The notes beneath the pieces are model-generated. The model worked only from the letters and a program-made list of their open reading frames with translations. It searched no databases and was not told where the DNA came from. DNA of 32,061 nt. It comes from Chiloscyllium plagiosum (taxonomy: Eukaryota). Location of the stretch: NCBI RefSeq assembly GCF_004010195.1, contig NC_057753.1, positions 10,225,326-10,257,386 of the forward strand, written 5' to 3'. Below, piece by piece: positions 19,181 to 23,100 of this stretch. The translations under genes were made by a program, and so were the position numbers. The stretch's first letter is position 1. Each line of letters opens with the position of its first letter.

Positions 19181-19479
19181 TCAATCCCCCTGCAATGGCA
19201 CATGAACACGCTGGTGGCTCCGCAGGTAGGTGGAGCAGGTGAAGGCCTTCCCGCACTCAGGGCAGCTGAAGGGCCTTTTTCCCCCGTGTGGACCCGCCGG
19301 TGAGTCGGCAGGTTGGAGGAATTGCTGAAGCCCTTCCCGCAGACAGGGCAAAGGAATGGCCTCTCCCCGGTGTGACTGCGCCGATGAGTCTCCAGCGCAG
19401 ACGGGAAACTGAAGCCTTTCCCGCAGTTGCCACACTTCCATGGTTTCCCTACTGTGCAGGATTCCTCTGGATTCTCCAT
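19181..19479 (-). pseudogene. Short C2H2 zinc-finger gene (3 fingers) with one frameshift at 19276-19285
   Basis: Kozak [73 protein letters not shown][fs][31 protein letters not shown]. Candidate acceptor TTTTTACAG| at 19859; candidate AATAAA at 18657-18662. Confidence 0.9.
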
Positions 19480-19989
19480 GGCCGAAGCTTCAGCCACACA
19501 CAAACACATGTGGAGCCTCTCCCCACCATGTAATCCTCTTTCCAGGCTCCACACTCAGTGCACTGCAACGGTAGAGTTTCTCATCCAGTCCCACTGATGC
19601 CGAAAATGTACTGAAAAGGAATCAAAAAGCTTTGCTCCTTTTCACAGAATCATAGTTGAAAACCGATGGATTGAGTGACTGTCAGCCATTGACGTCAAAG
19701 TGAGGACTGCAGGCGCTGGAGAGTCAGAGTCGAAAAGTAGAGCGCTGGAAAAGCACAGCAGGTCAGGCAGCATCCGAGGAGCAGAAGAAACGACATTTTA
19801 GGCATAAGCCCTTCATCTGTTGATTTTTGAAACTCCTGTCTTCAGATCTTCAAATACTCTGTAAAAAGAGATTATAAACTTGAAAGGGTTAGAAAAGATT
19901 TACAAGGATGTTGCCAGGGTTGGAGGATTTGAGCTATAAGAAGAGGCTGAATAGGCTGGAGCAACAGAAGCTGAGGGGTGACCTTAGGA

Positions 19990-20382
19990 GATGAGCCAAG
20001 TGCTGACAAATGGGACTAGATTAATTTAGGATATCTGGTTTGCATGGACGGGTTGGACTGAAGGGTCTGTTTCCATGCTGTACATCTGTGACTAAATAAT
20101 AAAAAGTATACTTTGAGAAATAACAAACTATATCCATGTTAACAAAGCTTAGTACACCACATGCTTTACTAACTATTCTCAGCAGGTCCTGTCCCTTCAG
20201 TGACTGAGGAACATATACATGCTGGTGCATAGTCTCCTTCACTAGCGTTTACATACTAGCCTCAGCAATTGCACAAGTAACAGCGAGAGTATAAAAAAAC
20301 AAGGATTTTTTAAGAGAGAAGGTAAAAAGCAAAAGCAGATGGAAAGTCGGTGTAAAATGTCACTATGACAGGACAGGCCCCA
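19990..20382 (-). repeat. Inverted copy of the sequence following the QSOX-like exon (22505-22920)
   Basis: ORFs 20021..20242(-) and 22664..22873(+) are near-identical, and the nucleotide match extends over the unique region. Confidence 0.88.
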
Positions 20383-20587
20383 GAACGCCCCTGGTGCTCA
20401 CCTTCCACCCTACCAACCTTCGCATAAACCAAATCATCCACCGACATTTCCGCCACCTCCAAAAAGACCCCACCACCAGGGATATATTTTCTTCCCCACC
20501 CCTTTCCGCCTTCCGCAAAGACCGTTCCCTCCGTGACTACCTGGTCAGGTCCACGCCCCCCTACAACCCACCCTCCCATCCTGGCAC

Positions 20588-21003
20588 NNNNNNNNNNNNN
20601 NNNNNNNNNNNNNNNNNNNNNNNNNNNNNNNNNNNNNNNNNNNNNNNNNNNNNNNNNNNNNNNNNNNNNNNNNNNNNNNNNNNNNNNNNNNNNNNNNNNN
20701 NNNNNNNNNNNNNNNNNNNNNNNNNNNNNNNNNNNNNNNNNNNNNNNNNNNNNNNNNNNNNNNNNNNNNNNNNNNNNNNNNNNNNNNNNNNNNNNNNNNN
20801 NNNNNNNNNNNNNNNNNNNNNNNNNNNNNNNNNNNNNNNNNNNNNNNNNNNNNNNNNNNNNNNNNNNNNNNNNNNNNNNNNNNNNNNNNNNNNNNNNNNN
20901 NNNNNNNNNNNNNNNNNNNNNNNNNNNNNNNNNNNNNNNNNNNNNNNNNNNNNNNNNNNNNNNNNNNNNNNNNNNNNNNNNNNNNNNNNNNNNNNNNNNN
21001 NNN
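20588..21003. other. Assembly gap
   Basis: Run of N. Confidence 1.
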
Positions 21004-21025
21004 ACGCTCCAGGCTCTCTGCCTTT

Positions 21026-21060
21026 ATTCCTGATGAAGGGCGTTTGCCCGAAACGTCGAT
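21026..21060 (+). ncRNA. Minimal type I hammerhead ribozyme motif (PLE-associated)
   Basis: TC-CTGATGA-A-GGGC GTTT GCCC-GAAA-C-GTC|GA: intact core, palindromic ACGT stem III, short stem I. Confidence 0.68.
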
Positions 21061-21159
21061 TTCGCTGCTCCTTGGATGCTGCCTGAACTGCTGTGCTCTT
21101 CCAGCACCACTAATCCAGAATCTGGTTTCCAGCATCTGCAGTCATTGTTTTTACTTCTA

Positions 21160-22135
21160 ATTTAGGATATCTGTTCAGCTTGGACAAGTTGGGCCAAAGG
21201 GTCTGTTTGTGTGCTGTATGACTCTAGTCATCTTCGGTGGAAGCAGAAGTGTGGTTGTGAAGACTGGACTTTCAGAGCAGCTTTCAAGAATGCTTTGCCC
21301 TTACTGGGCATAGAAGTGTTTGACTGAAATGTGTCGGTGTTAATACCTTGATGTCTCATTTTGCTCCCCTCTTACTGGGGACGTTAACCATTTCATGTCT
21401 GGTTGTTTCTCAAGAAGCTGCATTGCAGGTTCATCTTGAATTGCATGCTGTTTTTGCTTCCTAAAATCAGACCTGCTCACTCTCAGCAGGATCCCAGTGT
21501 TGTGAAAGATATTAACTTTCAGGTGGAGTTATCCAAAATTCAGACAGATGTCGGTCTTGATGTGTTTGCTTTTCTGCTCCTGTAAGACTCTGAATCAGCA
21601 CTTTCAGGAGAATGAGAGTGGAATGAAAACAGAGGAGGAGAGAGAGTGGGATGGTGCTTTCAATTTTGTGGAATAACAAAAGGAAAGAATGTTCTGTAGA
21701 AAGTAGAATTGCTTGTTCCGAATTTCCACGCTGAACTGTCAGTGATGACTTTTGTAATCTCTTTTTGCAGCATATTTGAAGATCTGAAGAGATGAAGGCC
21801 TTATGCCCAAAACATTGACTCTCCTGCTCCTCGGATGCTGCCTGACCCGCTGTGCTTTTCCAGCGCCGCACGTTTTGACACTGACGCTCCAGCCTCTGCA
21901 GTCCTGATTTTGACGCCCATGTCTGACAGTCACTCAATCCATCGGGATCGCAACAACTTTTAACTATGATTCTGTGAGAAGGAGCAAAGCTTTTTGGTTC
22001 CTGTTTGAGTACATTTTCAGTATCAGTGGGACTGGATGAGAGAGCCTACTGTTGCAGCTCACTGAGTGTGGAGCCTGAAACAGCTTACGGCCTGGAAAGA
22101 GGAATTCACAGTAGGGCGTGATGGTGAGGCTCCAC
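21160..22135 (+). repeat. Partial copy of the ZF cassette (intron end, acceptor at 21770, terminal-exon leader) lacking the ZF CDS
   Basis: Matches 17800-18570 (+) and 19510-19875 (-). Homology ends at GAGGCTCCAC (22135), 30 nt before where the ZF ATG would be. Confidence 0.85.
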
Positions 22136-22220
22136 CTGCCAAGCCCTATCCCCGAGCTGATGTCACACGGGGGTGAAGTCGCTCGAGTGAGGAAGCGGCG
22201 GGAGGGCGGCTGTTAGGAAA

Positions 22221-22470
22221 ATGGCACCGTGAGGCCGGGCAGACACCCGTCACTGGGCACCGCCGCCTTCCTGGTGCAGCTGCTGTGTCACGGCCACACC
22301 GGCCGGCTGTACAGCAGGCAGGAGCCGGTGAGCATTCTGGAGGCGGATGGGGTTAAGGGCCTGCTTGGGGACTCGTCGGCCGCCTGGGTGGTGGAGTTCT
22401 ACTGATCGTGGGGCGGCCCCTGTGTCAACTATGGGGCCACCTGGAAGGTACTGGGCCCGGGAGGTGAAAG
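22221..22470 (+). pseudogene. QSOX2: Unprocessed pseudo-exon 1 of a quiescin sulfhydryl oxidase (QSOX2-like)
   Basis: LGTAAFLVQLLCHGHTGRLYSRQEPVSILEADGVKGLLGDSSAAWVVEFY*SWGGPCVNYGATWKVL..EVK matches the QSOX signal peptide and Trx1 start (recalled QSOX2: RLY...SSAAWLVQFYSSWCGHCIGYAPTWRALA). It ends in a phase-1 donor AAG|GTGAGG at 22471. Stops at 22230 and 22403, frameshifts, CGHC changed to GGPC. Confidence 0.85.
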
Positions 22471-22811
22471 GTGAGGCAGGTTGTGGGACGGAGGGGAAGG
22501 AATGTGTGGCCTGTCTTGTCAAAGTGTTATTTTACACAGACTTTCCATCTGCTTTTACTGGGGTTTGTGCTTTTCACCCTCACTCTGTTTTCAAAAAAAA
22601 TCATTGTGTTTTTTTACTCTTGCTGTTATTTGTGCAACTACTTAGACTAGTGTGTAAATACCAGTGAAGGAGATTATACACCAGCATGTATGTGTTCCTT
22701 GGTCACTGAAGGGCCAGGATCTGCTGAGAATGGTTAGCAAACCATGTGGTGTACTAATTATTGTTAACATGGATATAGTTTGTTATTTGTCAAAGTATAC
22801 TTTTTACTATT

Positions 22812-23100
22812 TAGAGTCACAGATGTACAGCATGGAAACAGACCCTTGGGTCCAATCCGTCTATGCCAACTAGATATCCTAAATTAATCTGGTCCATTTG
22901 TCAGCACTTGGCTCATCTCCCTCTAAACCCTTCTATTCATATACCCATCCAGATGCCTTTTAAATGCTGTAATTGTACCACTTCCTCTGGCAGCTCATTC
23001 CAGACACTCACCCCACCTCACCACGGCCCTTGGGTACCATTTATATCTTTCTGCTCTCACCCTAAACCAATGCCCTCTAGTTCTGAACTTCACCCCTGTA
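22812..23100 (-). mobile_element. CR1 3' end
   Basis: Standard CR1 3' terminus. Confidence 0.78.

What the first reader, a model, noticed from the sequence alone, without database searches (positions are those of the whole stretch)
19181..22920. Reciprocal QSOX/zinc-finger shuffling: a possible chimeric transcription unit
Seen, plus strand: the ZF terminal-exon leader (acceptor 21770) runs to GAGGCTCCAC at 22135, 30 nt short of the ZF ATG position, then switches to the QSOX exon. Seen, minus strand: a copy of the post-QSOX intron (20382 to 19990, equal to 22505-22920) leads through a CR1 piece directly into the ZF acceptor at 19859. A PLE at 20383 sits where the QSOX exon would lie, about 35 nt further upstream. 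Inference: a cassette of QSOX promoter/exon 1, intron and ZF exon existed and was amplified, so some ZF genes in this family may be driven by a co-opted QSOX promoter.
Basis: partly seen in the sequence, partly recalled or inferred. Interest (0 to 1): 0.7.

Follow-up and report, generated by a model that had tools for sequence, protein, structure and literature searches.

The report
Borrowed promoter amplified among shark zinc-fingers
Bamboo sharks carry dozens of copies of the front end (promoter plus first exon) of the enzyme gene QSOX2 inside a zinc-finger gene cluster, where it is spliced onto zinc-finger exons in two public gene models and likely replaced the genes' own promoter, but the two joins in this window are broken local rearrangements, not the original unit.

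Summary
The pieces are real. 22221-22470 is a dead copy of QSOX2 exon 1, with its intron behind it; the intact parent lies on C30. A second intron copy at 20382-19987 (84% identical) runs into a zinc-finger (ZF) acceptor. The exon has at least 42 matches in the genome, 18 in one ZF cluster. The predicted splice exists in sister copies: two public gene models and one sequencing contig join this exon to a ZF terminal exon, one upstream of an intact 10-finger ORF.

The 'reciprocal' reading fails. In 23 of 35 copies the intron leads to the cluster's own, decayed promoter; only the window's minus copy goes straight to a ZF exon, and it lacks promoter and exon 1. The plus join is likely a deletion in the usual ZF-then-QSOX2 order. 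The capture likely occurred inside a LINE fragment shared by both loci; the exon was later homogenised, without coding constraint. A second housekeeping front end (CYHR1/ZFTRAF1) is amplified in the same cluster. This works like LRRC37 promoter acquisition. The scan already noted the QSOX2 copies on other DNA. Activity of the window's own copies was not shown.

The parts
14030..14470 (+). Likely native ZF-gene promoter and first exon (NRF1-like word 14200, CCAAT 14286 and 14330, ETS-like word 14307, donor at 14465)
   Evidence: motif names recalled, promoter role inferred
17797..18566 (+). ZF intron end and acceptor (AG ends 18421); the exon breaks off in a repeat 3' end at 18454-18566, where it meets the 3' flank of the minus-strand ZF gene
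19099..19479 (-). C2H2 ZF ORF (ATG 19479): two fingers, then a frameshift near 19277; third finger in another frame; likely pseudogene
19480..19859 (-). ZF terminal-exon leader and acceptor (AG ends 19859); only about 19 nt of ZF intron remain before it
19876..19986 (-). LINE (CR1-like) piece not present at this place in the parent or in the usual chimeric copies; private join
19987..20382 (-). Orphan copy of QSOX2 intron 1 (starts about 34 nt into the intron) plus the start of its LINE piece
20381..21154 (+). Penelope-like repeat with an assembly gap (20588-21003); span 774 nt fits one element, so exon 1 is unlikely to hide in the gap
   Evidence: six other copies span 705-949 nt; class recalled,
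21158..22117 (+). ZF intron end, acceptor (AG ends 21770) and terminal-exon leader, cut off before the ZF ATG
22118..22135 (+). Junction zone between ZF leader and QSOX2 proximal promoter, with an 8-nt shared word
   Evidence: bridged by one public contig (22053-22175, 2 differences, depth 5)
22118..22220 (+). QSOX2 proximal promoter/5' UTR remnant with a 17-nt deletion and CpG decay
22221..22470 (+). Dead copy of QSOX2 exon 1: CGHC active site changed to GGPC, stop at codon 4 from the native ATG, second stop at 22403-22405 in the QSOX frame; GT donor at 22471
22471..22815 (+). 5' part of QSOX2 intron 1
22816..23099 (+). LINE 3' piece (antisense) in which QSOX2 sequence passes over into ZF-gene sequence
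23100..23340 (+). Decayed 5' half of the likely native ZF promoter

Best explanation
A 3-kb front end of QSOX2 (promoter, exon 1, start of intron 1) sits in many copies just upstream of the zinc-finger genes' likely native promoter, is spliced to ZF exons in sister copies, and likely took over as their promoter; the window holds two broken derivatives. Steps: (1, inferred) a break in a LINE fragment upstream of a ZF promoter was repaired by pairing with the similar LINE fragment in QSOX2 intron 1 and copying back through exon 1 and the promoter to about -2.47 kb. (2, shown) The unit spread with the ZF genes, mostly in one cluster, and is shared by three bamboo/epaulette shark species. (3, shown for gene models and contigs; promoter activity inferred) Exon 1 is spliced to several downstream acceptors, one of them the ZF terminal exon. 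It acts as a 5' exon with upstream ORFs, not as an enzyme, and the old promoter behind it loses CpGs. (4, inferred) Gene conversion homogenises the exon among copies. (5, inferred) In this window, local repeat-mediated deletions removed a ZF array between a ZF leader and a QSOX2 head (plus join), and separately joined an orphan intron copy to a ZF acceptor (minus join).
For: Parent: intact QSOX2 exon 1 on C30 (100% to P0001), with later exons 20-47 kb on. Copies: 42 matches, 18 on C44 9.41-10.57 Mb. Linkage: 23 of 35 intron copies lead to the native-promoter sequence; 13 of 23 promoter copies have a same-strand ZF array within 7 kb upstream, 1 an opposite-strand one. Splicing: P0125 continues from the copy at C44:10376170 into the acceptor at C44:10389908, upstream of an open 294-aa, 10-finger ORF; P0143 continues with VFEDLKT, the peptide of the predicted junction; one contig of run X8 leaves the donor at 22470 into a ZF-leader start. 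Capture site: chimeras have QSOX2 flank left and ZF flank right of a shared LINE piece. A 2-nt marker of the native LINE piece is in 3 of 3 pieces in front of the far QSOX2 boundary, 5 of 8 before native promoters, 0 of 22 after the QSOX2 intron, 4 of 150 others. Old promoter: median 7 CpG in 450 nt behind QSOX2 heads (n=19) against 15 elsewhere (n=11). Exon: 27 fixed differences in 250 nt from the parent but median 0.8% among copies, against 2 of 190 and 8.2% in the 3' intron.
Against: No test of promoter activity or start site was possible: all laid runs with data were contigs. Most annotated isoforms splice elsewhere: 1 of 11 isoforms from two C44 loci reaches a ZF terminal exon, and X1 loose ends at the donor go to other exons. 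The modelled chimeric mRNA has 8 ATGs before the ZF ATG, so ZF protein output is unproven. The CpG comparison uses related, non-independent units whose 450-nt stretches are not strictly homologous. The 18 copies in the exon comparison were found by an exon query, which favours similar exons. The proximal promoter and the first 83 nt of intron are also uniform (1.3% and 1.8%), so selection on a regulatory element could contribute. In all four laid runs every contig covering 22405 carries the sister copies' letter, not the window's. No reads were obtained across the minus-strand join.
Confidence: 0.62

Rival explanations
1. Passenger debris that still fires: the QSOX2 head was duplicated with ZF units and makes mostly non-coding or short-ORF RNAs; splices to ZF acceptors are incidental and give no ZF protein.
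For: 10 of 11 C44 isoforms end in non-ZF exons; 8 upstream ATGs in the ZF-bound model; many copies are truncated, gapped or face an opposite-strand ZF gene; no coding constraint on the exon (9 synonymous to 18 non-synonymous variants, p 0.17).
Against: Proximal promoter better kept than distal promoter and 3' intron; native promoter decayed behind it; the ZF-acceptor splice appears in gene models of two species and in one contig; ZF exons have upstream ATGs in their own leaders anyway (3).
Confidence: 0.25
2. One reading: a compact cassette (QSOX2 promoter, exon 1, intron, LINE, ZF exon) was the amplified unit, and the two joins in the window are reciprocal products of one exchange.
For: Both joins lie within 3 kb, and the two ZF leaders form a 79% inverted repeat (19540-19878 and 21751-22080).
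Against: Direct intron-to-ZF-exon join in 1 of 35 copies; the two intron copies are 84% alike and do not group together in the tree; the LINE stretch at 19876-19986 is not the one in the parent or the chimeras.
Confidence: 0.05
3. The window's joins are assembly errors in a gapped, repeat-rich cluster.
For: Three N gaps in the window; 22406-23483 has no difference from the copy at C44:9.50 Mb while its flanks differ by 7-10%; that sister copy starts just after a gap.
Against: An independent public contig bridges the plus join with 65 and 58 nt on its two sides and 2 differences (one contig, depth 5). The minus join lies in gap-free sequence but was not bridged.
Confidence: 0.05
4. A Helitron or other transposon captured the QSOX2 promoter and exon and spread it, as HelibatN3 did with NUBPL in bats.
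For: Same anatomy (promoter, coding start, splice donor) and a few copies on other chromosomes.
Against: No fixed ends: left boundaries at -2472, -2424, -1056, -776 and about -500; the right end merges into a LINE piece and ZF sequence; dispersed copies on C2, C8 and C28 carry ZF-unit sequence with them.
Confidence: 0.03

Closest known systems
LRRC37 promoters Cl8 and Cl3, taken from BPTF and DND1 by segmental duplication (PMC3371713; abstract and 12 passages seen)
   Same: An expanding gene family gains foreign promoters from unrelated genes, stepwise, and one spreads to most members.
   Different: There activity was measured (RT-PCR, luciferase); here it is inferred. Here a coding first exon and intron come along, the recipients are C2H2 ZF genes, copy number is in the dozens, and the join maps inside a shared LINE piece.
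NPEPPSP1-TBC1D3 fusion (PMC12871316, preprint; abstract end and passages seen)
   Same: A partial duplicate of a broadly expressed gene, with its promoter, is spliced to a member of a gene cluster and leaves an upstream ORF; relatives lose the unit by inversion or deletion, as in this window.
   Different: One 110-119 kb duplication driving one paralog, shown with long reads; here a 3-kb piece was amplified many times.
HelibatN3 capture of the NUBPL promoter, coding start and splice donor (PMC4778049; passages seen)
   Same: Amplified promoter plus donor that traps downstream exons.
   Different: Helitron ends and genome-wide dispersal there; here no such ends at the QSOX2 boundaries, and the copies travel with ZF units.
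QSOX2 (parent gene, G000:C30, exon 1 at 40989539-40989291)
   Same: Promoter, exon 1 and the first 0.6-0.7 kb of intron 1 are homologous.
   Different: Copies lack the CxxC motif, are frameshifted, and have no later QSOX2 exons nearby.

Membership tests
QSOX sulfhydryl oxidase (functional) | Thioredoxin CxxC motif in an open frame from the native ATG | tested here: not met
   CGHC in the parent, GGPC in the copies; window copy stops at codon 4
QSOX2-derived duplicate | DNA homology to the promoter, exon 1 and intron 1 of an intact QSOX2 gene | tested here: met
Promoter acquisition by duplication (LRRC37 type) | Foreign promoter placed 5' of members of an unrelated family, same strand | tested here: met
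   23 of 35 intron copies lead into the native ZF promoter region
Promoter acquisition by duplication (LRRC37 type) | Spliced transcripts joining the foreign first exon to the recipient gene | tested here: met
   For sister copies only: P0125, P0143 and one X8 contig
Promoter acquisition by duplication (LRRC37 type) | Transcription starts in the foreign promoter and changes the recipient's expression | not testable with these tools
   Only contigs could be laid; the one raw-read run gave 0 reads
Promoter acquisition by duplication (LRRC37 type) | The window's own locus is such an active unit | tested here: not met
   Minus unit lacks promoter and exon 1 and its ZF is frameshifted; plus unit lacks the distal promoter and a nearby ZF array
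Helitron gene capture | Shared 5'-TC and CTRR-3' ends with hairpin around the captured piece | tested here: not met
   Variable left ends and a right end inside a LINE piece; outer ends of dispersed units not mapped
C2H2 zinc-finger gene (19479-19099) | Tandem C2H2 fingers in one open frame | tested here: inconclusive
   Two fingers match PF00096, then a frameshift
Penelope-like element (20381-21154) | RT plus GIY-YIG endonuclease ORF | tested here: inconclusive
   No Pfam or Atlas hit; a related C8 copy shows motifs I recall as PLE RT and GIY-YIG
CR1 LINE (19876-20090, 22816-23099) | 3' end of a CR1-clade RT element | tested here: inconclusive
   A window ORF that overlaps the same repeat family resembles 'jockey-like' RT clusters (weak recognition); clade name recalled

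The most novel reading that the evidence does not exclude
Shark zinc-finger clusters repeatedly recruit housekeeping-gene promoters (QSOX2, CYHR1/ZFTRAF1) by repeat-templated insertion, let their own promoters decay, and keep the borrowed first exons uniform by gene conversion, so that whole subfamilies of transcription factors were rewired and are tuned by upstream ORFs left over from the donor gene.
Probability: 0.3. Interest if true: 0.72.

Novelty: new member of a known kind. Interest (0 to 1): 0.48.

Why it matters
How fast-turnover zinc-finger clusters keep new copies expressed is an open question. Here a donor gene, two capture junctions, dozens of dated copies, decayed native promoters and a second donor all lie in one cluster, in species bred in laboratories. 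That makes promoter replacement testable copy by copy with start-site mapping and methylation data. It also explains the many 'sulfhydryl oxidase-like' gene models in these sharks as mis-named first exons. The window's own joins add little beyond showing how such units die.

Tried and rejected
Laying four runs on 18300-25500 at 80% likeness was swamped by repeats and showed no usable joint; raw-read run X20 laid 0 reads, which is no test. No RNA holder was listed as on record; the runs used are 'RNA?' or '?'.

I tested whether the minus-strand intron belongs to a subfamily in which an exon-deleted QSOX2 remnant faces away from a ZF gene. The three members in the tree form a supported group, and the window copy lies outside it, so I dropped that model.

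Exon 1 hidden in the 416-N gap: unlikely, since the repeat's span fits one element. Coding selection on the dead exon: not found. GC-biased conversion: 11 weak-to-strong against 6 strong-to-weak fixed changes in the exon, 7 against 12 in the flanks, too few to use.

Two other multicopy promoter types in the cluster (50 and 43 matches) showed no clear donor gene among the listed matches. Pfam and the Atlas did not name the repeats.

Literature: no paper held QSOX2 + zinc finger + shark + promoter or QSOX2 + Chiloscyllium; CYHR1 + shark gave one unrelated review; some searches were seen as listings only and showed no description of this element. The library lacks most subscription journals, and no supplements were read.
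Full report
Observation. The window is G000:C44:10225326-10257386. The plus-strand acceptor ends at 21770 and the minus-strand one at 19859. 20382-19987 matches 22505-22920 at 83.9% over 417 columns. The two ZF leaders form a 79% inverted repeat. The exon runs from ATG 22221 to 22470, with a GT donor at 22471. One correction: QSOX2 homology begins at 22118, so the plus join is a zone, 22118-22135, with an 8-nt word shared by both parents.

Parent. One of the 42 matches (C30) encodes an intact exon 1 with CGHC. 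It is 100% identical to the first 83 residues of P0001, a record labelled Chiloscyllium plagiosum, and its relatives are named sulfhydryl oxidase 2. Later QSOX2 exons follow 20-47 kb on.

Copies. The 361-nt query gave 42 matches (40 of 47 candidates scored; a lower bound), 18 of them on C44 between 9.41 and 10.57 Mb. I mapped about 0.65 Mb of that region in 13 segments, centred on the copies; it is a dense C2H2 ZF cluster. The aligned copies share the loss of the CxxC motif and a frameshift before the donor. Proteins with the same lesions are on record for Hemiscyllium ocellatum and Chiloscyllium punctatum. The search returned 7 hits among 19 candidates and none from other genera, which is weak evidence on range.

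Usual layout. Of 35 copies that keep the 3' end of the captured intron, 23 lead within 1.6 kb to one shared ZF-unit sequence, 8 to other sequence, 3 could not be scored, and 1, the window's minus copy, goes directly to a ZF terminal exon. The shared sequence looks like the native ZF promoter and first exon. CpG-rich versions carry CCAAT, CRE, NRF1-like and ETS-like words (names recalled) and end in a donor; the window has a well-kept one at 14030-14470. Behind QSOX2 heads it has a median of 7 CpG in 450 nt (n=19), elsewhere 15 (n=11). The nominal p is 7.5e-5, but the units are related and some contain insertions. On the 5' side, 13 of 23 promoter copies have a same-strand ZF array within 7 kb upstream, 1 an opposite-strand one, 7 none, and 2 were too short. 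The common order is therefore ZF gene, QSOX2 head, old promoter, next gene.

How the capture happened (inferred). The parent intron and one ZF subfamily each carry a LINE 3' piece in the same orientation, with different left flanks. Chimeras have the QSOX2 flank on the left and the ZF flank on the right. The longest copies reach -2472 and -2424 from the ATG and are preceded there by the start of a LINE piece. A 2-nt marker of the native piece is in 3 of 3 such pieces, 5 of 8 pieces before native promoters, 0 of 22 after the QSOX2 intron and 4 of 150 others. Of the 3 unmarked pieces before native promoters, one has a variant my pattern missed and two belong to QSOX2-led copies with insertions. 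So the QSOX2 piece lies inside the native LINE fragment, as one-ended homologous repair would leave it. The common short class, starting near -500, has a ZF 3' flank joined at a few shared bases and is likely secondary.

Splicing. Public gene models for two C44 copies have 11 isoforms. One, P0125, continues into the acceptor at C44:10389908, 13.7 kb downstream, in the exon that holds an open 294-aa ORF with 10 fingers. The others end at the donor, use acceptors in the old promoter, or use other exons. P0143 (C. punctatum) continues with VFEDLKTEVSK, close to the VFEDLKTGVSK that the window's 19859 acceptor would give. I could not see the read support behind these models. In laid contigs, one from X8 leaves the donor at 22470 into a ZF-leader start (TGTATTTGAAGATTTAAAG), while other X8 and X1 contigs go to different exons (19 of 32 loose ends shown). 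These runs are guessed to be RNA and come from coded organisms.

What the exon does. From the native ATG, 10 of 18 aligned copies give a 45-aa ORF that ends inside the exon; the window copy stops at codon 4. I aligned 18 of 29 copy loci and left out 11 as partial, gapped or short. Variation among copies is not skewed to synonymous changes (9 to 18, p 0.17). The exon differs from the parent at 27 fixed sites in 250, yet copies differ from their majority by a median 0.8%. The 3' intron shows 2 fixed sites in 190 and 8.2%, the distal promoter 12 in 226 and 6.2%. The intron tree is star-like, with the parent among the copies. The copies thus radiated early and the exon was made uniform later, most simply by gene conversion. 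A 1078-nt stretch (22406-23483) identical to the copy at C44:9.50 Mb, inside 90-93% flanks, fits this, although a collapsed assembly would look the same. Finding copies by an exon query inflates the uniformity. The ZF-bound model has 8 upstream ATGs, all closing before the ZF ATG, so translation would need leaky scanning or reinitiation.

The window's joins. Plus: a ZF leader is fused to the QSOX2 proximal promoter. This is what a deletion of the ZF array and distal promoter would give in the common order. One X15 contig bridges it (22053-22175, 2 differences, depth 5). The remnant shows CpG decay relative to its closest sister. No same-strand ZF array follows for about 58 kb. In all four runs the contigs over 22405 carry the sister copies' base. 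Minus: an intron copy without exon or promoter runs through a LINE stretch found in neither parent at that place into an acceptor whose ORF is frameshifted after two fingers. The repeat at 20381-21154 spans 774 nt with its gap, against 705-949 in six other copies, so the exon is unlikely to be in the gap. A third break lies in a repeat at 18454-18566. The two intron copies do not group together in the tree. These are separate, private events, not a reciprocal exchange.

A second donor. Another CpG island type in the cluster has 51 matches (40 of 151 candidates scored). One, on C5, is the intact first exon of a gene whose relatives are named CYHR1/ZFTRAF1. The copies carry up to 1.5 kb of its upstream DNA and an internally deleted exon start. 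Of 7 copies checked, 4 have a same-strand finger as the nearest upstream one and 1 has a same-strand finger 7 kb downstream. Splicing was not tested. The scan's notes had nothing on it.

Comparison and verdict. This works like the stepwise gain of BPTF and DND1 promoters by LRRC37 (PMC3371713) and like NPEPPSP1-TBC1D3 (PMC12871316). It resembles Helitron capture of NUBPL (PMC4778049) in anatomy, but lacks such ends. Eight searches found no description of the shark case. Earlier notes of this scan describe sister QSOX2 copies; I took the 'dead promoter' idea and two papers from them and tested them here. New here are the two capture junctions, the exon-versus-flank contrast and the second donor. 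Verdict: a new member of a known kind, real at family level, dead at this locus; promoter activity and ZF protein output remain untested. Interest 0.48.

Noticed in passing
L061:8620-9120 (G000:C44:10208619-10209119); parent L121:9363-9755 minus (G000:C5): Promoter and start of exon 1 of CYHR1/ZFTRAF1 amplified to at least 51 matches, many in the same ZF cluster: a second captured housekeeping front end.
   Followed up: partly
window 22406-23483 against G000:C44:9501045-9502709: 1078 nt without a single difference inside paralogous flanks of 90-93% identity: recent gene conversion or a collapsed assembly.
   Followed up: partly
G000:C44:9737496, 9738306, 10450420; L127; L135: A subfamily in which exon 1 is mostly deleted or replaced and the intron faces away from a ZF gene. 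The three C44 copies keep the parent's reading before the donor, without the shared frameshift.
   Followed up: partly
L041 (G000:C8:84217600-84227599) and L037 (C17): A roughly 35-nt unit from QSOX2 intron 1 has expanded into a minisatellite of about 9 kb in the C8 copy and about 0.5 kb in the C17 copy.
   Followed up: no
P0001, P0009, P0133: Public models join QSOX2 exons to LHX3 LIM/homeobox exons in three shark species (read-through isoforms at the parent locus).
   Followed up: no
L093:6600-7250 and L044:2880-3180: Two more multicopy CpG-island promoter types in the cluster (50 and 43 matches) with no donor gene seen; window 1925-2175 and about 23940-24070 resemble them.
   Followed up: partly
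P0121, P0138, P0140, P0141: In the other two species some copies keep the native ATG in frame, predicting 86-119-aa peptides with the QSOX2 N-terminal hydrophobic stretch and no CxxC.
   Followed up: no
window 22328: An internal splice donor in the copied exon is used in contigs of X1 and X15 and in model P0130.
   Followed up: no
window 27208-27967: Tandem duplication of about 460 nt at 98% identity in LINE-derived sequence.
   Followed up: no
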